Shown: positions 5,242 to 57,526 of the stretch, piece after piece
Layout: each line of letters begins with the position of its first letter
How positions within the stretch are numbered: position 1 is the stretch's first letter
Assembly: GCF_009914755.1 (NCBI RefSeq)
Contig: NC_060930.1
Direction: 5' to 3' (one strand)
DNA length: 64,000 nt
Source of the DNA: the human T2T-CHM13v2.0 reference genome, Homo sapiens
Notes under the pieces: model-generated
What the model saw: only the letters and a program-made list of their open reading frames with translations
The model's database searches: none
Told to the model about the DNA's origin: nothing
Translations under genes and position numbers: made by a program

Positions 5242-5588
<347 letters not shown>

Positions 5589-6251
5589 TGAAAAAATATT
5601 TACAATTGCCTCTGATTTAAAGCATCAGGAACTGAAAGCATTTAAGTTAAATCCTTTGGGATCCTATTTCCATCTCTAATCAAGACAGGTGACTTTCCTC
5701 CAGGAATACTTGAGTGGTAATCACCCTGACCAGCTGCCCATGTAAGGAATTGCTAATGATTCTAAACCATGGGGCAAATACAAAGCTTTATATAAGTGGT
5801 AATTACTGTTATTGTTCTCTGACATCCTTACATTTCAAGCTGAGTTCCTTCCAGCAAATGTAGTACAGGAGAAAATTAAAGCTCTGGTGACATCATCCTC
5901 ATAATAAAGAGGAGTCACTGGCCAGAGATGCTCACTTGTGTTTCTGAGGCCATTGAGAGAGGATCTTATCATCATTTTGACTGGAGAGATGAAAACTTGG
6001 GGGTTTGTCTTCTTTTGAGTTGTTATAGGGTCTTTCCTAATCGTGATAGAATATTTGTTTTGGTCAGAAATCCCTCACTGGGGGAACTCCCTTCTATTGC
6101 CAAGAAAAAAGGCCACTGGCTGCAGTGACTCACTTGGGACTATTGGCACCATATTGGGGTGCACATGTAGCTCCGGACACTCCAGCTCTCCTACAAAACT
6201 TCCTGTTCTCTCTCGGGAAAAATAGGAAGGCTGATCCGATCCAGAGCCTCC

Positions 6252-6404
6252 ATGGGGGGTTCAACCTGCTGTGGGTGTGGCTGTGGCAGGTGCAATGGGT
6301 GTGCTAATAATCGCAGCAGGAACATTGACTCTCGGCATAGGCGTCCTGACTCCTGGAATCGACATGAAAATCCCAGAAACAGGTACTATGACCGGGATCT
6401 TGAG
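6252..6404 (+). CDS. Candidate alternative first coding exon of CRYBG1 (51 aa, MGGSTCCGCGCGRCNGC..., acylation-type N-terminus)
   Basis: ATG at 6252 (+4 G), 51 open codons, consensus donor GAG|GTAAGT at 6405. Phase 0 is compatible with the acceptor at 55917. CpGs are locally retained and no repeat similarity was recognised. Confidence 0.6.
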
Positions 6405-6601
6405 GTAAGTCCTTGATGAGGAAATCCTTCTGAGGCATTGATTTGTCCAATATTTCTTTAGTGATGTTTGAGTATTGATGATTGTCAATCAGCATGTATT
6501 AATATTATGCAAGGCTAACTAAGTATTTCAGTCTCATATATTTGAAAATATCCTGGCAACTGTCTATTAAGATACTCATTTAGCTATTCTTTTTTTTCTG
6601 A

Positions 6602-7623: not shown

Positions 7624-8658
7624 AGCCAGTGTGCTGTTTTAGTATTAAATCTTCTGTCCTGTGCTATTATTCGTACAAATAAACCTGAGGCAGGAAAGAA
7701 AAAAAAAAAAACAACAACTTCTGTCCTACTTTGTAAAGTGGGAGGTGGCCATCACCACCAGCTTGAACTCACCTTTGATGCTTGTTTTTCCTTCTCTTCT
7801 CTACTTGTAATAGTATACATTTGCTTTGTTTTGCACATGATGCCTTTGAAGCTATTGGATGGAATGTGTAGAATGTTTGTCACCCTAGTTTTGTAATGTG
7901 TTCTAGGAAAAAGCATGCCCTTTAAACTTATGATCTATTCTTTATTTTCCCTCTCAGGGTGCTGATTATCATATAACCCATAATTTAATGAAATAGGTAA
8001 TTGATTTTAAATATATGTGTTTGTATGTGTATAGATATGTGTGTGTATGAAGCACACTTTTGAAAAACATCTGAATGCTGAAGTGACAGTTGGAGATGGA
8101 ATAAAACATTTGATGTTGGCAGTTTGTTGAGCATATCAGTCAGATAAAGCCTTTAGTTGTTTCTTGCATTTAAGACTGCAGGAAAGGGATTTAGTATTTT
8201 AATTATTCTGTTTATTCCCATGACTACTGATTTTACTCTCATTTTCTGTTAGTGGACCTTTGATGTCACTCTGCCATTGTGCCTAATGACTCTTTTAGAA
8301 GCTTTAGTCAAATACCAGCTACAGAGAGGCCAAAAAGTCACTGTGTGTAGATTCATGTCCATGGCTAATTATTGGTTAATTATCAGTTACCAGTAGATAT
8401 TTTAAATAATTTTCAACCAGTCACATGAAAGAAAATCCCCAGAAAAACATGGGGAAAAACCAAAATGTGTGAGTGGAGGACAAATGGACAACTGTAATTT
8501 AAATGCTTAGAGCCTTTGTGACAACTTGTGGTTGTGGGACAGCTCTCAATGTGACAAACACAACCAGCATGAGCAGCTGCAAGGCAACCTGGGTCTTCTC
8601 CGTAGACACTGGGCCTGTCTAATCGAACGCCCTTCTTGACTTCAAACAAAGATCTTAG

Positions 8659-38910: not shown

Positions 38911-41900
38911 GAATAGCATTTCAAATGCATATTCACCATCAACAATACGCTGACATGAGCCAGCAGATGCTTAATATATGTTTCTAGTACTGGTGGTCAT
39001 GATGAAAGAAAGAGGAGAACATTTTTTCTTGATGTACATCAAAGACTTAAGTAATTAAGAGGTCTGATAGTAGTGTCATTATTTTGTGGAAGAATGTAAC
39101 TTGCTATCAAGTACTGAAAACTTCTGATAAGACATATAGCAAGTAGAAACTATAGACTAAATGTTATGATAACTTATAATTATCTAATTATATTGATAAA
39201 TTTAGGTGTCCATTATTTAAGTATTATGAGGTGAGCATAATTTTTGCCTTTTCAATTATTATGTTGCATGCTTGGACACATTTTTGTAATGGCACATGGG
39301 ATGTAGTTTGTAGTGTATAATGTATATTTTTGTTTTTTAAAAAAGTGTAAGTAAATAAAAGCTGGAATTAAAATAAAGCAAAACAAAACACACAACATTA
39401 AATAAAATTGACCTTGTTCACCAGAGAAGGAAAATCAAAGGTACCATATATCCTTCTTTCTCTATCTACTTCCTATCTACCTATAATCCTATAATCAGGT
39501 TTTTCATGCAATTTAATGTATGCAGGGCAACTTTCTACAAACTACCTACTACTTCCTCTGTTGTCTTTTCAGCAATTTTGGTTCAGTGTCACACCCAAAA
39601 AAGGGCACACCTCTTTAACACTTTCAACTCTTGAATCAAACACACCCTTATTAAATGTGCTTTTCACATCAACAGTCAGTGTCTGTCATTCAGCTCTGGG
39701 AGAGAGCCGGCTCTGGCTCTGGGAGAGAGCAGCACTGCCGAAGGTGAGCTGATGAGAGCTCACCAGGGTATGCTGGAAGGAGGAGGATGAGACAAGGGTA
39801 ATTTGAGAAGTAAGAAGATTGATATGGTAATGCACACACGGCTACATTTTACTTCCCATATTCTCTTGGTGTATCTATAGAAAACAAAAAAGAAGCAACA
39901 CTATGGTAAGAAACTAACTGAAGTTTTTTCTTTTCATTGCCTAAGACTTTGTTTTGGACTTATATAGTATTATTAATAACATCAAGTAACTTCACAATGT
40001 ATTTATTGTCTAGATCTGGTAGTTTTGGGGGGGCTCAAAAATCTGAAGCATTTGTGAATATATGGAATATAGTGGGGGGGCTGAGTACCCTTGGATACTT
40101 TGGCTCGAAGCAGAAATAAAAATGTCCAGTATAGGATCTGCTGCTGTCTGTGCTTTTCTAGGTTCTTTAAAATATTACAGGTAATCATTAACAAGCTACT
40201 CTCATTGAATATATTTGAGTTAGTTCCATCAGTCATTCTTACAGCATCTATTTTATAGACCCATTGTTGAGTGTACTATAAATAACTTATTTAATCCTTT
40301 TTTTCCTTGAGTAAAAAAAAAAAAAAAAAAAAAACTTTCCCCCCTGCCCCCTTTTCAAATTTCAAAGGCAAAGTGATATTCAACTCCTTGGAAAAAGACT
40401 AGTAGGGAAATATTGCTTTGAGAGTAAGGATTGATTTTTATTTTTCTTAATGGTAGGCAAAGTTAGAACTCTACTACACATTCTTTTAAAATGTAGGTTA
40501 TCTTTCAAATGTGTTCCCAGTGGGTGTTGACGGCCTTCTGCCCTCATCAGCCTGTCCCCATAACAAGTTATTATGTATTGCACATACTTTCCCCAAACAA
40601 GATTTTATTTGGACACAAAAATTTATTGGAGACACTGGGCTTCTTACAACCCTGCTATTTAAGAAGTGGTTGGGATTAAAATAAATTATAAGAAATAGCA
40701 ATCCTGTAAACTTTTAAGAAAAAGAAGTTTACATAAGACCTATTAAACTTTGCTTCACCAGTTTGGTCATAGAGGCATAAGTATAAAGCCCCGATTAAGT
40801 GTTGGGCGTTATTAGCCTTCCTTTTCTTTGTTAATAGTTTAATACTTAACACTTTCCTTATCATTTGATATTTTAGACACAATGGCTTAATAACTACACT
40901 GACAAATCATCTTTACACTAAGGTATAAGCTCTTCATCTTCCCCTAGAAATCGTAACAGAATTAATACCTCGTGACTTAAAACCTTTTTTGAAACAATTT
41001 GCCAATTTTTTTTTTTAAATCTAGGTTTAAGAGCGTCATGACTATGAACCTTCAAAAATAATTTTAAGTTTAATTGAAATTTCTGATATTTTGGTCAACC
41101 ATCTTATTAGAGACTAATTATAAATATCTAAAAATCTACTAAGCAGATTAACTATAGCCTATGTACATTGATAGGTAAACTTAGGTTGGTGAGAATGGCA
41201 GGAGGAGGTATTTTGGCCAGGCTGATCATTTTGAAGGTTGTTTGTCTCTTGAGTTTCTCTGTGATACAAGATAAAGATACATGGCAAGTGCTGCAGGTAC
41301 TAACAGCGTAGTGGCTAGTGAGACGACATTTTAATTTTCATTCGAAGTGTTGAAATGGGCAGGAACCTGCTGCCTGTGCCTCCAGGTGTAATCAGGACTA
41401 GAGCAGGGCAGGAGAGCCTGGCGCACAGGCTTGTCCACCTCAAGCCTGTACAGGAGCAGTGTTTGCAAAACGCAATCCAGAGGCACAAGCCAAGGCAGAG
41501 AGAAGGCATCTGAGGCTCCCTCTGCCTGCCAGGAACACTGTAGTAAGAGGGTGATGAAATATTTCACTTTTCAAAACCGAAAGAGCAGGAAATTTCTCAC
41601 CATCAGCCCACTCCTGACACATATAGTCCTAACCTCTGCCACCCTCCCCACCCCCCATGACACCAGCCCAAGACAGAATCTAATGGAATGGGTGAAGAAT
41701 AAAACCAAATTCCATACGAGGGGAAATCAGGCCGGTCTTCCTGAGGGTAGAAAGAAACTGAGTGGGAAAAGACATTCGATGTTGCATGAAAACCCTTACA
41801 AGGATAATTTTATAGAATATATTCACCCCAACGAGAGGAAGTGTGAACTGCTTCCAAGTTCAGCAGTTCGATGTGGCTTTTTGGGCTCTCCTGGAACTGT

Positions 41901-54689: not shown

Positions 54690-55350
54690 TGGTTTCAGAG
54701 GAGTCCTTACGCAAATACACTTCCCTCTCCTAGGAGCCAGGCTGGGCTCGCCGCCCCTGCTCCCCCGCTTTCCCAGGCTCGCCTCCTCCTCTTCCTGCCC
54801 ACCTCTATGCCCCGCACCTACCCAGTCCCCACTCTGGCAAACCCCGGAGCGCCACCGCGCCCATTGGCGGGTTTGCTTTTATTGGTTTGTTCTGCGCTCC
54901 CTCCCGCCTTCTGGCGCGGGCACTGGATGCTAGCCGTTTTGCTCCAGGAGATATAAGAAGCCCAGGTTTTCCCCCTTCCTGGGAGCGCTGCGGATCATTC
55001 GCAGGCGGCCCGGCACCCTCGCATAGGTGGGCCGGCCCCTGGGGCTCCAGCCGTGCGACCCCGGAACCACACGTGTGGCGAGGAACGGGTCCCGGGGCGG
55101 AGTAGGCAGAGTCCCAAGCGCATCCTTCAACCACACCTCCTCGGCTCTAGGGGGCGGTGAGCAAAGGCGGTCACCCCTGCAACCTCGCCCGCTACCCCCA
55201 CGCACTCCTCCGTGTTCACATGGTAGGAACTCCCACAGGCAAAAGCCTTTCCGATGCGCTCTGCAGCCGCGGGATCACTCGGGTGTTTGAACGCTCGCGC
55301 GCTCCTCCCATTGGAGCTCCGGCTAAGGCGGGGCCCAGGTGCTTGCTTCC
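54690..55350. promoter_or_regulatory. CpG-island promoter-like region upstream of the large exon
   Basis: High CpG density. Inverted CCAAT boxes (ATTGG 54863, 54881), TATA-like TATAAG 54952, GC boxes GGGGCGG at 55094 and 55151, E-box CACGTG 55070. Confidence 0.75.
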
Positions 55351-55916: not shown

Positions 55917-57526
55917 TCCAGAGCACAACCTCCAGAAGACAACAGAAGGAAGCCAGTTTTGGGGAAACTTGGCACTCTATTCACTGCAGGAAGGAGAAGA
56001 AACAGTAGAAACGGGTTAGAGAGTCCCACCAGATCGAATGCCAAACCACTCTCTCCCAAAGATGTGGTAGCCTCTCCTAAGCTCCCAGAGAGAGAGAGTG
56101 AGAGGAGCAGATCTCAGAGCAGCCAACTGAAGCAAACGGACACAAGCGAGGAGGGCTCCCCGCGGGAGAATCCCCGAGAGGCAGAGGGCGAGCTCCCCGA
56201 GAGCGGTGGCCCCGCAGCCCCCCCTGACGCCGAGCTGTCACCTCGCTGGAGCAGCAGTGCAGCGGCTGTGGCTGTGCAGCAGTGCCATGAAAATGATTCA
56301 CCCCAATTAGAACCTCTGGAGGCAGAGGGAGAGCCTTTCCCAGATGCCACCACCACTGCCAAGCAGCTGCATTCCTCGCCGGGAAATTCCTCCAGGCAAG
56401 AGAACGCAGAGACGCCCGCCCGCAGTCCGGGGGAGGACGCTTCACCAGGTGCTGGCCACGAACAGGAGGCTTTCCTGGGTGTGAGGGGTGCGCCAGGGTC
56501 GCCCACCCAGGAGCGGCCCGCGGGAGGACTAGGCGAGGCCCCTAACGGAGCCCCCAGTGTGTGTGCCGAAGAGGGCTCCCTGGGGCCCCGCAACGCCCGC
56601 AGCCAGCCCCGCAAGGGCGCGTCTGATTTGCCAGGTGAGCCTCCGGCCGAAGGCGCAGCGCACACGGCCAGCTCCGCGCAGGCAGACTGCACAGCCCGCC
56701 CCAAGGGTCACGCCCACCCTGCTAAGGTGCTAACTTTGGACATCTACTTGAGTAAGACTGAGGGGGCACAAGTGGACGAGCCGGTCGTGATTACTCCCAG
56801 AGCGGAAGATTGCGGTGACTGGGACGACATGGAGAAGAGGTCCAGCGGCCGTAGGTCGGGGAGGCGGAGGGGGTCGCAGAAATCCACCGACTCCCCCGGC
56901 GCGGACGCCGAGCTCCCTGAGAGCGCTGCCAGGGACGACGCGGTGTTCGACGACGAGGTGGCGCCAAACGCGGCCAGCGATAACGCCTCGGCGGAAAAGA
57001 AAGTGAAATCTCCGCGGGCAGCCCTCGACGGGGGCGTTGCCTCCGCTGCGAGCCCAGAATCCAAGCCCAGCCCCGGTACCAAAGGGCAGCTCCGAGGGGA
57101 GTCGGACCGGAGCAAACAGCCACCCCCGGCTTCGTCCCCCACGAAGAGGAAGGGCAGGAGCCGTGCCCTCGAGGCCGTGCCCGCCCCGCCCGCCAGCGGC
57201 CCCCGGGCTCCCGCCAAGGAGTCCCCACCCAAGAGGGTGCCCGATCCCAGCCCAGTCACCAAGGGCACTGCGGCCGAGAGCGGGGAGGAGGCGGCGCGGG
57301 CCATCCCCCGCGAGCTCCCGGTCAAGAGCAGCTCGCTGCTGCCGGAGATCAAGCCCGAGCACAAGAGGGGCCCGCTCCCCAACCACTTCAACGGCCGGGC
57401 AGAGGGAGGTCGAAGCAGAGAGCTGGGCAGAGCGGCCGGAGCGCCTGGAGCTTCTGACGCCGACGGCTTGAAGCCCAGGAACCATTTCGGCGTGGGCAGG
57501 TCGACAGTGACCACTAAAGTGACCCT
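55917..57526 (+). CDS. CRYBG1: CRYBG1/AIM1 large internal coding exon (1610 nt; phase 0 start, phase 2 end), disordered Pro/Ala/Ser/Glu-rich N-terminal region
   Basis: Polypyrimidine tract and tttcag acceptor ending 55916. Open frame [22 protein letters not shown]...[10 protein letters not shown]. Donor CT|GTAAGT at 57527. The sequence [37 protein letters not shown] matches the AIM1 N-terminus as I recall it. Confidence 0.95.

What the first reader, a model, noticed from the sequence alone, without database searches (positions are those of the whole stretch)
6252..6410. Hidden alternative first exon that would give CRYBG1 a myristoyl/palmitoyl membrane anchor
Seen: ATG at 6252 opens 51 codons, MGGSTCCGCGCGRCNGCANNRSRNIDSRHRRPDSWNRHENPRNRYYDRDLE, ending exactly at a consensus donor GAG|GTAAGT in phase 0. 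The next CRYBG1 acceptor (55917) is also phase 0, giving ...[13 protein letters not shown]... with no stop. The ORF is below the 60-aa cutoff of the ORF track, is non-repetitive and retains several CpGs in a CpG-poor intron. Established: G2-G-S-T-C-C fits the N-myristoylation pattern G-{EDRKHPFYW}-x2-[STAGCN]-{P}, and nearby Cys (6,7,9,11,14,17) plus a basic stretch is the classic dual-acylation membrane signal. CRYBG1/AIM1 is a known actin-binding protein. Inference: promoter choice could switch CRYBG1 between cytosolic forms and a lipid-anchored membrane-actin linker 355 aa longer than the MEKR isoform. It may already exist as a predicted model; I cannot check that.
Basis: partly seen in the sequence, partly recalled or inferred. 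Interest (0 to 1): 0.85.

Follow-up and report, generated by a model that had tools for sequence, protein, structure and literature searches.

The report
Conserved alternative first exon of CRYBG1
A short unannotated stretch inside the human CRYBG1 gene looks like a real, mammal-conserved alternative first coding exon that would put a cysteine-rich, probably lipid-anchored tip on this actin-binding protein, though its use in human tissues remains unproven.

Summary
ATG 6252 opens 51 codons that end at GAG|GTAAGT. Joining 6404 to the acceptor at 55917 gives an open frame with 355 residues before the MEKR start.

The exon is unique in the genome. Eight non-human sequences carry the same peptide. 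Two are CRYBG1 gene models, pig K7GR17 and hedgehog isoform X2. Both start with this exon and continue ...DRDLE|SRAQPPE..., which is the predicted junction.

Across all nine sequences, 24 of 51 positions are invariant, including Met1, Gly2 and Cys6, 7, 9, 11 and 17. All five CpGs of the human ORF lie in Arg CGN codons. The flanks carry frame-shifting indels and the exon does not.

The myristoylation pattern holds in 9 of 9 sequences. A 2025 paper shows CRYBG1 is S-palmitoylated, but its main text names no sites or isoform.

Not shown: human transcription, translation, or the lipidation itself. Human RefSeq has no such exon. The mechanism is a known kind, and predicted models already exist in other species. 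Interest is moderate.

The parts
5920..6081 (+). Conserved upstream non-coding block; candidate promoter or enhancer of the exon. It overlaps the RefSeq functional element 'enhancer 5371-6019'.
   Evidence: Five of the six unnamed mammalian ORFs (P0003, P0005, P0006, P0008, P0012) align here by tblastn. The frame differs from the exon's in P0005 and P0006, and the alignments have gaps. The enhancer label comes from the hub's annotation table.
6126..6157 (+). Promoter-like motifs: one AP-1 consensus TGASTCA (6126) and two inverted CCAAT boxes ATTGG (6142, 6153), about 95-125 nt upstream of the ATG.
   Evidence: Pattern scan. Expected per 361 nt from window totals: 0.05 for TGASTCA and 0.31 for ATTGG. 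Function and conservation were not tested.
6252..6404 (+). Coding part of the candidate alternative first exon (51 codons, phase 0 at its end). T2T-CHM13 chr6:107638252-107638404.
   Evidence: Orthologous peptide in 8 other sequences.
6255..6320 (+). Codons 2-23: Gly2 and the Cys/Gly string (Cys 6, 7, 9, 11, 14, 17) up to Arg23. This is the predicted acylation module and the most conserved part of the exon.
   Evidence: With Met1 (codons 1-23), 88% amino-acid identity to six unnamed ORFs (122 of 138), against 65% for codons 24-51. M1, G2, C6, C7, C9, C11 and C17 are invariant in 9 of 9; C14 in 8 of 9.
6321..6404 (+). Codons 24-51: Arg/Asn/Asp/Ser-rich linker with a loose threefold (D/N)SRNR repeat, ending in the invariant RDLE.
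   Evidence: alignment. R28, R30, D33, S34, R37, N40, R42, R48, D49, L50 and E51 are invariant.
6405..6410 (+). Splice donor GTAAGT, preceded by GAG.
   Evidence: Only 2 of 3454 GT sites on the + strand reach its score.
55917..57526 (+). Shared CRYBG1 coding exon whose phase-0 acceptor (pyrimidine tract then cag|TCCAGA) would receive the donor.
   Evidence: Hub annotation (NM_001371242.2).
56829..56831 (+). ATG of the MEKR start used by the short isoform, 355 codons downstream of the new start in the joined frame.

Best explanation
Window 6252-6404 is a genuine, mammal-conserved alternative first coding exon of CRYBG1.

A promoter just upstream starts a transcript whose first exon supplies its own ATG. 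The likely promoter region is the conserved block 5920-6081 together with the AP-1 and CCAAT motifs at 6126-6157. The exon splices from GAG|GTAAGT (6404) to the phase-0 acceptor at 55917.

The product is the CRYBG1 body from SRAQPPED... onward, with a 51-residue tip replacing the N-terminus encoded by the distal CpG-island promoter exon.

I infer the following. After removal of Met1, Gly2 is N-myristoylated. The adjacent cysteine string (Cys 6, 7, 9, 11, 14, 17) is then S-palmitoylated. Together with the Arg-rich linker, this holds the isoform on the inner face of membranes and ties membrane to actin.

Shown: the sequence anatomy, the conservation, and identical junctions in two orthologous gene models. 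Inferred: human transcription and translation, both lipid modifications, and the localisation.

My odds: about 0.8 that it is a real coding exon in mammals; about 0.6 that it is used in human; about 0.6 that, once translated, the tip is a lipid anchor.
For: (1) The ORF, donor, phase and open joined frame are verified.

(2) Pig K7GR17 (P0007) and hedgehog isoform X2 (P0004) start with the orthologous exon and read ...DRDLE|SRAQPPEENKRK.

(3) Six further unnamed mammalian ORFs carry the exon. In the nine-sequence alignment, 24 of 51 human positions are invariant, including M1, G2, C6, C7, C9, C11, C17 and the final RDLE.

(4) The exon aligns end to end with no frame-shifting indel in 8 of 8 sequences. 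Its only indel is an in-frame two-codon insertion, seen in 3 sequences. The upstream flank changes frame in 3 of 6 unnamed ORFs and carries 46 gap columns.

(5) Codons 1-23 are 88% identical (122/138). The upstream flank is 49% identical (221/452).

(6) All 5 CpGs of the human ORF sit at positions 1-2 of Arg CGN codons. Three of those Arg (R28, R37, R48) are invariant in 9 of 9. This signal is specific to this reading frame.

(7) The gene already uses several first exons that join the same acceptor in phase 0. The annotated first exons 39698-39905 and 54936-55222 both end in ATG|GT.

(8) The PS00008 myristoylation pattern holds in 9 of 9 sequences.

(9) PMC12207882 (abstract, passages and section 9 read) shows CRYBG1 is S-palmitoylated. 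It also reports that CRYBG1 stays in lipid rafts without DHHC5, which the authors attribute to an unknown alternative anchor.
Against: No human transcript, TSS, ribosome or peptide evidence could be reached. The hub's RefSeq table (5 transcripts) has no exon here, although NCBI's pipeline did model it in hedgehog. That suggests weak or narrow expression in human.

The pig and hedgehog entries are predictions and could be ab initio extensions onto a conserved ORF.

Ascertainment bias: the protein databases hold only open ORFs and gene models. Species in which the exon is broken could not have appeared, so '9 of 9 open' overstates the conservation.

Codons 24-51 (65% identical, 109/168) are no better conserved than the first ~20 intron codons read in the same frame (69%, 44/64).

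The in-frame indel lies in a 6-nt repeat, where slippage is in-frame anyway. The CpG-in-Arg signal is partly non-independent because of the internal SRNR repeat.

Human carries four replacements at positions uniform in the other eight sequences: R4S, N29H, R35W and S41P.

Kozak position -3 is T. There is no CpG island.

No DNA from other mammals was available, so no dN/dS could be computed. Nothing was found outside mammals.

PS00008 is a permissive pattern.
Confidence: 0.6

Rival explanations
1. The exon is real and used in some mammals such as pig and hedgehog, but is silent or decaying in human. The human ORF is then an intact relic that contributes little or nothing to human CRYBG1 protein.
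For: Human RefSeq lists no exon here (hub table). Models exist for hedgehog and pig. Human alone carries R4S, N29H, R35W and S41P at positions uniform in the other eight sequences. Kozak -3 is T.
Against: The human ATG, Gly2, all six Cys, the frame and a near-perfect donor are intact. The CGA codon of R37, one CpG transition away from a stop, is retained. A RefSeq functional element lies directly upstream (hub table).
Confidence: 0.15
2. The stretch is a conserved non-coding element, such as an enhancer, a promoter or a poison exon, whose open frame is incidental. The pig and hedgehog models are then ab initio artefacts that picked up the ORF and its strong donor.
For: The upstream block 5920-6081 and the first ~20 intron codons are conserved too. 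Codons 24-51 are no better conserved than the start of the intron. Only open ORFs can appear in protein databases. A 48-codon ORF ending at a consensus donor occurs by chance on the minus strand of this same window.
Against: The start codon, Gly2, the Cys string and the final RDLE are invariant in 9 of 9. The exon has no frame-shifting indel while the flanks have them. All 5 CpGs fall in Arg codons of exactly this frame. The phase matches the only open frame of the next exon. As a cassette exon from the candidate acceptor at about 6226 (read by eye), it would be 179 nt long and shift the frame.
Confidence: 0.12
3. The exon is real and translated, but the Cys/Gly string is not a lipid anchor. 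It instead binds metal or serves redox, disulfide or protein-interaction roles.
For: Alternating Cys-Gly strings also occur in metal-binding proteins (recalled). Myristoylation is only pattern-predicted. The published palmitoylation is not mapped to this tip.
Against: Gly2 is invariant (9 of 9) and directly followed by conserved Cys6/Cys7, the arrangement of dual-acylation signals. No metallothionein or other metal-binding family matched at E up to 10. A cytosolic N-terminal Cys string next to a myristoylation site is a typical S-acylation substrate (established knowledge).
Confidence: 0.13

Closest known systems
Predicted CRYBG1 isoforms of other mammals: K7GR17_PIG (2042 aa) and NCBI 'beta/gamma crystallin domain-containing protein 1 isoform X2' of Erinaceus europaeus (1997 aa)
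   Same: Orthologous first coding exon (80% and 78% identical to the human peptide). Identical junction into SRAQPPE.... Same downstream beta/gamma-crystallin and ricin-type domains (Pfam PF00030 and PF00652 listed).
   Different: These are computational models in other species, and I found no published study of this N-terminus. The hub's RefSeq table has no equivalent human model. Hedgehog has a two-codon insertion in the Cys string.
Dual-acylated N-terminal membrane anchors: Src-family kinases such as Fyn and Lck, G-alpha i/o subunits, and the short AKAP7/AKAP18-alpha isoform (all recalled, none checked with a tool)
   Same: Met-Gly start that fits the N-myristoyltransferase pattern, cysteines within the next few residues, and nearby basic residues. 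In AKAP7 the anchor is also isoform-specific and arises from alternative 5' exon use (recalled).
   Different: Here there are six cysteines spread over 12 residues rather than one or two. No lipid has been demonstrated. There is no sequence homology to those anchors, so the likeness is functional and not a family relationship.
Cysteine-string S-acylated segments, such as cysteine string protein and the cytoplasmic tail of coronavirus spike
   Same: A dense Cys cluster facing the cytosol. The only Pfam matches at E up to 10 were two sub-threshold hits. One was the spike intravirion Cys-rich tail family PF19214 (E 0.13, 13.1 bits against a cutoff of 27).
   Different: The match is below threshold and compositional. 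Those strings follow a transmembrane or other anchor, whereas this one follows a predicted myristoyl-glycine.
The other CRYBG1 promoters and first exons (distal CpG-island exon, 39698-39905, 54936-55222, internal start 56342)
   Same: All feed the same gene body. The 39698 and 54936 exons also end in phase 0 onto the 55917 acceptor.
   Different: The distal exon encodes an unrelated Pro-rich N-terminus (MPLSPPAQ...) and lies in a CpG island. The two proximal exons could give at most a single Met. Only the 6252 exon encodes a Cys-rich, Gly2-bearing tip.

Membership tests
Alternative first coding exon of CRYBG1 | Lies on the sense strand inside the gene, upstream of a shared acceptor, with no annotated acceptor in between | tested here: met
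   Hub table. The annotated exon starts at 39698, 54936 and 56342 are not preceded by AG, so they are transcript starts and not acceptors.
Alternative first coding exon of CRYBG1 | ATG-initiated ORF ending at a donor whose phase matches the next acceptor, with an open joined frame | tested here: met
   0 stops in 587 joined codons. Only frame 0 of 55917-57526 is open.
Alternative first coding exon of CRYBG1 | Orthologous exon conserved, with start codon and frame kept, in other species | tested here: met
   8 of 8 non-human sequences keep M1, the frame and the RDLE end. Caveat: only open ORFs can be in the databases, and only mammals were found.
Alternative first coding exon of CRYBG1 | Used with the same junction in orthologous gene models | tested here: met
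   P0004 (hedgehog) and P0007 (pig) read DRDLE|SRAQPPE. Both are predictions.
Alternative first coding exon of CRYBG1 | Excess of synonymous over non-synonymous change (coding selection) | tested here: inconclusive
   No DNA of other mammals was available. Indirect signals favour coding: CpGs only in Arg codons, no frameshifts in the exon, and 88% identity for codons 1-23. Codons 24-51 are no better conserved than the start of the intron.
Alternative first coding exon of CRYBG1 | Human transcript evidence: a TSS and 6404-to-55917 junction reads | not testable with these tools
   No RNA-seq, CAGE or long-read data are held. Five literature searches found nothing on this exon or on an alternative CRYBG1 start here.
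N-myristoylated proteins (NMT substrates) | Initiator Met followed by Gly | tested here: met
   M1-G2 in 9 of 9.
   9 of 9 N-termini match. The pattern is permissive.
N-myristoylated proteins (NMT substrates) | Myristate shown on Gly2 | not testable with these tools
   Needs metabolic labelling or mass spectrometry. In the held library, the listings suggest no link between CRYBG1/AIM1 and myristoylation. I opened only the one paper; the three papers I saw as listings only.
Dual-acylated (myristoyl plus palmitoyl) membrane anchors | Cysteine(s) within a few residues of the myristoyl-glycine | tested here: met
   C6, C7, C9, C11 and C17 are invariant; C14 is present in 8 of 9.
Dual-acylated (myristoyl plus palmitoyl) membrane anchors | S-acylation of the protein demonstrated at these cysteines | tested here: inconclusive
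   PMC12207882 shows CRYBG1 palmitoylation by Acyl-RAC.
Dual-acylated (myristoyl plus palmitoyl) membrane anchors | Membrane localisation that depends on Gly2 and the cysteines | not testable with these tools
   Needs expression of the wild-type and mutant tip.
Metallothionein-like or other Cys-rich metal-binding domains | Significant match to a curated family profile | tested here: not met
   The Pfam scan at E up to 10 gave only two sub-threshold hits, neither metal-binding.

The most novel reading that the evidence does not exclude
This exon encodes the missing membrane anchor of CRYBG1. An internal promoter would produce an isoform that is myristoylated at Gly2 and multiply palmitoylated on the Cys string. 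The isoform would sit constitutively in raft membranes and link them to cortical actin. That would explain both the DHHC5-dependent palmitoylation and the DHHC5-independent raft residence reported in 2025. Promoter choice would then switch CRYBG1 between a cytosolic actin binder and a membrane-actin tether that affects receptor signalling such as VEGFR2.
Probability: 0.3. Interest if true: 0.7.

Novelty: new member of a known kind. Interest (0 to 1): 0.5.

Why it matters
CRYBG1/AIM1 is studied as an actin-binding suppressor of invasion and, since 2025, as a palmitoylated partner of VEGFR2 in lymphatic endothelium.

Functional work I could read used the short MEKR isoform (NM_001624, PMC5529512) or an unspecified mouse testis cDNA (PMC12207882).

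If an isoform with its own lipid-anchor tip exists, two things follow. Localisation and palmitoylation results may depend on which 5' exon a construct or cell type uses. The unexplained raft anchoring of CRYBG1 would also have a concrete, testable cause.

For annotation, it would add a conserved coding exon, and a target for variant interpretation, that the hub's human RefSeq table lacks.

The kind of mechanism is well known: an alternative promoter giving an acylated N-terminus. The gain is therefore specific to this gene rather than conceptual.

Tried and rejected
- **Earlier findings:** The search of earlier findings was not open.
- **Paralogous exon in the human genome:** none found. DNA search found only the exon itself. 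The protein search gave three other hits at E 1.5-4.7, which I rejected as chance.
- **Profile search of 1.84 billion representatives:** 6 hits at E<=0.001. Three are true (P0003, P0006, P0008). I dropped the other three as hits matched in several short stretches. P0009 and P0010 I inspected and found to be tandem repeats. P0011 I judged from its table row only (4 short stretches, E 7.6e-4).
- **Outside mammals:** nothing was seen. These libraries hold few vertebrate proteins. One search was limited to 91-2000 aa, to 94-2000 aa and to 1098-3495 aa, and clustering can hide isoforms. Absence is therefore weak evidence. A human model with this start could be hidden inside a cluster.
- **ESM Atlas:** best scores 0.76 and 0.75 to bacterial hypothetical proteins; no lead.
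- **Pfam:** only two sub-threshold hits.
- **CpG-island promoter:** rejected.
- **In-frame cassette-exon reading:** rejected. There is an in-frame stop at 6168-6170, and the exon would be 179 nt from the candidate acceptor.
- **Upstream ATG at 5928 as the true start:** three unnamed ORFs begin at the equivalent ATG. Rejected because human has two in-frame stops between it and 6252, and other species change frame there.
- **Literature:** nine searches gave one relevant paper.
- **dN/dS:** not possible, as no DNA of other mammals could be fetched.

Full report
**Observation**

- ATG at 6252 opens 51 codons, MGGSTCC...DRDLE, ending at 6404 and followed by GTAAGT.
- Read without splicing, the frame stops three codons later at 6416. 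The nearest upstream in-frame stop ends at 6170.
- Joining 6252-6404 to the annotated exon 55917-57526 gives 587 codons with no stop. The junction reads DRDLE|SRAQP, and the MEKR start lies at residue 356 (ATG 56829). The new start would therefore add 355 residues.
- Only frame 0 of that exon is open.
- On a rough donor weight matrix (values recalled), only 2 of 3454 GT sites on the + strand reach this site's score.
- The ORF has 5 CpGs, observed/expected 0.49 against 0.26 for the window. There is no CpG island.
- The stretch is single-copy in the assembly by DNA. The peptide has no paralogue: the other hits have E of 1.5 or more.

**Is it more than chance?**

The + strand of the window has only two AGGTRAGT sites. 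In 200 Markov simulations, an ATG ORF of 51 or more codons ending in phase 0 at such a site was expected 0.025 times per strand. That is rare for one window. Over a 3-Gb genome it still leaves thousands of chance cases. A 48-codon example lies on the minus strand of this very window. The anatomy alone would not settle the matter.

**Related sequences**

Searching the 51-residue peptide against longer proteins returned 5 of 5 candidates. One is NCBI's 'beta/gamma crystallin domain-containing protein 1 isoform X2' of Erinaceus europaeus (P0004, 1997 aa).

Searching residues 1-53 of that protein among proteins of 1098-3495 aa returned 2 of 8 candidates. The second is K7GR17_PIG (P0007, 2042 aa).

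Both begin with the orthologous exon and continue ...YYDRDLE|SRAQPPEENKRKPVLGK....

Six more hits (P0002, P0003, P0005, P0006, P0008, P0012) are unnamed ORFs on contigs of about 0.9-2.4 kb. They read straight through the exon into its flanks, so they are genomic DNA of other mammals.

The profile search of 1.84 billion representatives gave 6 hits. Three are true. I dropped the other three as hits matched in several short stretches; P0009 and P0010 proved to be tandem repeats when inspected, and P0011 was judged from its table row only. Nothing outside mammals appeared. These libraries are poor in vertebrates, and two of the searches had length limits, so that absence is weak evidence.

**Conservation pattern**

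In the nine-sequence alignment, 24 of the 51 human positions are invariant:
- M1, G2, C6, C7, G8, C9, G10, C11, G12, R13, C17, S22, R23
- R28, R30, D33, S34, R37, N40, R42, R48, D49, L50, E51

C14 is kept in 8 of 9.

I aligned the six unnamed ORFs back to the window by tblastn.

| Region | Amino-acid identity | Notes |
|---|---|---|
| Codons 1-23 | 88% (122/138) | 4 gap columns: one in-frame two-codon insertion in P0005 and P0006 |
| Codons 24-51 | 65% (109/168) | no gap columns |
| Upstream flank | 49% (221/452) | 46 gap columns |
| First ~20 intron codons | 69% (44/64) | similarity fades beyond this |

The exon aligns end to end with no frame-shifting indel in all eight non-human sequences. 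Its only indel is an in-frame two-codon insertion in three of them. Upstream, the frame changes in P0002, P0005 and P0006.

In the human sequence, all five CpGs occupy positions 1-2 of Arg CGN codons (R21, R28, R31, R37, R48). R28, R37 and R48 are invariant, and R21 is kept in 8 of 9. CpGs surviving only where their loss would change an amino acid, or in the CGA codon of R37 create a stop, is what purifying selection on this frame predicts.

**Caveats on that evidence**

- The databases contain only open ORFs and gene models, so lineages with a broken exon could not be seen.
- The two named entries are predictions and may be partly ab initio.
- Codons 24-51 are no better conserved than the start of the intron.
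- The in-frame indel lies in a 6-nt repeat that would slip in frame anyway.
- The CpG positions are partly non-independent because the linker holds a loose threefold (D/N)SRNR repeat.
- Human alone carries R4S, N29H, R35W and S41P.
- I could not obtain DNA from other mammals, so there is no dN/dS.

**Gene context**

The selected transcript starts about 95 kb upstream of the window, in a CpG island. Its first exon holds an ORF beginning MPLSPPAQ..., unrelated to this peptide.

Within the window, the annotated exon starts at 39698, 54936 and 56342 are not preceded by AG. They are therefore transcript starts, which makes 55917 the next acceptor after 6404.

The 39698-39905 and 54936-55222 exons both end in ATG|GT. 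That ATG is the only in-frame Met in phase 0. CRYBG1 thus already uses several first exons that feed the same phase-0 acceptor. The 6252 exon would be one more, and the only one encoding a distinctive tip.

Upstream of the exon lie three features:
- a block (5920-6081) conserved in the other mammals;
- the RefSeq 'enhancer 5371-6019' (hub table);
- an AP-1 consensus and two inverted CCAAT boxes at 6126-6157 (expected 0.05 and 0.31).

I read this as a TATA-less internal promoter. That is inference only.

**Likely mechanism**

Met-Gly at the start, the PS00008 pattern in 9 of 9 sequences, and invariant Cys6/Cys7 followed by more cysteines match the layout of myristoyl-plus-palmitoyl membrane anchors. 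Ten Arg lie in the 51 residues. Known examples of such anchors are Src-family kinases, G-alpha subunits and the short AKAP7 isoform; I recalled these and did not test them.

Pfam gave only two sub-threshold hits. One is to the Cys-rich, palmitoylated tail family of coronavirus spike (E 0.13), which is a compositional echo and nothing more.

Independent experimental support comes from PMC12207882 (abstract, passages and the whole of section 9 read).
- CRYBG1 was recovered by Acyl-RAC from human lymphatic endothelial cells.
- Its palmitoylation fell on DHHC5 loss.
- A mouse Crybg1 cDNA cloned from testis behaved likewise.
- The authors note that CRYBG1 stays in lipid rafts without DHHC5 and invoke an unknown alternative anchor.

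A myristoylated, multiply acylated tip would fit both observations, but nothing ties them to this exon yet.

Haffner et al. (PMC5529512, passages read) used NM_001624. Such a form lacks any such tip.

From the search listings, no paper in the held library appears to link CRYBG1/AIM1 with myristoylation. Of the four co-occurring papers I opened only PMC11193767, where the two terms are unrelated. None describes this exon.

**Comparison and novelty**

The closest known things are the pig and hedgehog predicted isoforms, which have the same exon and junction. In mechanism, the closest are isoform-specific dual-acylation anchors.

It passes every sequence-level membership test I could run, both for 'alternative first coding exon' and for 'NMT substrate / dual-acylation signal'. 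The defining experimental features could not be tested here: human transcript, attached lipids, and mutant-sensitive localisation.

The exon is missing from the human RefSeq table supplied. I could not check GENCODE.

I file it as a new member of a known kind. Its value is specific to CRYBG1 biology and human annotation.

**Verdict**

- Observation confirmed.
- Exon interpretation well supported for mammals (about 0.8) and plausible for human (about 0.6).
- Lipid anchor plausible but untested (about 0.6 if the exon is translated).
- Overall confidence in the combined statement: 0.6.
- Interest: 0.5.

Noticed in passing
window 39698-39905 and 54936-55222: Both annotated alternative first exons of CRYBG1 end in ATG|GT. 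That ATG is the only in-frame Met in phase 0 with the 55917 acceptor. These transcripts could therefore start translation with a single exon-1 Met joined to SRAQPPED.... The hub table does not give their coding parts.
   Followed up: partly
window 6126-6157: An AP-1 consensus (TGACTCA, 6126) and two inverted CCAAT boxes (6142, 6153) lie about 95-125 nt upstream of the ATG. Expected per 361 nt: 0.05 and 0.31. No TATA or Sp1 motif occurs in 5900-6260.
   Followed up: partly
window 5920-6081: A non-coding block conserved in five of the six unnamed mammalian ORFs overlaps the end of the RefSeq 'enhancer 5371-6019'. Its reading frame differs between species, so it is not coding.
   Followed up: partly
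window 6354-6356 (codon 35, TGG): Human has Trp where all eight other sequences have Arg. This would fit a CpG transition from CGG on the human lineage. Three other replacements are seen only in human: R4S, N29H and S41P.
   Followed up: no
window 6321-6404: The second half of the peptide holds a loose threefold (D/N)SRNR repeat with every Arg of the repeat conserved. This suggests origin by internal duplication of a unit of about 24 nt (by eye).
   Followed up: no
window about 7773-7916, minus strand (converted from reverse-complement coordinates): A 48-codon ATG ORF ends in phase 0 at another AGGTRAGT site. It is a same-window example that this anatomy can arise by chance. It was not examined further.
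   Followed up: no
L006 about 500-1500 (chr6:107536500-107537500, T2T): The distal first exon of the selected CRYBG1 transcript lies in a CpG island (GC 0.62-0.76, CpG o/e up to 0.91). It holds an ORF beginning MPLSPPAQ..., unrelated to the 6252 exon.
   Followed up: partly
window 6252-6404 (peptide residues 6-26): One of only two Pfam matches at E up to 10 was the Cys-rich intravirion tail family of coronavirus spike (PF19214, E 0.13, 13.1 bits against a cutoff of 27). It is a compositional resemblance between cysteine strings and is not significant.
   Followed up: no
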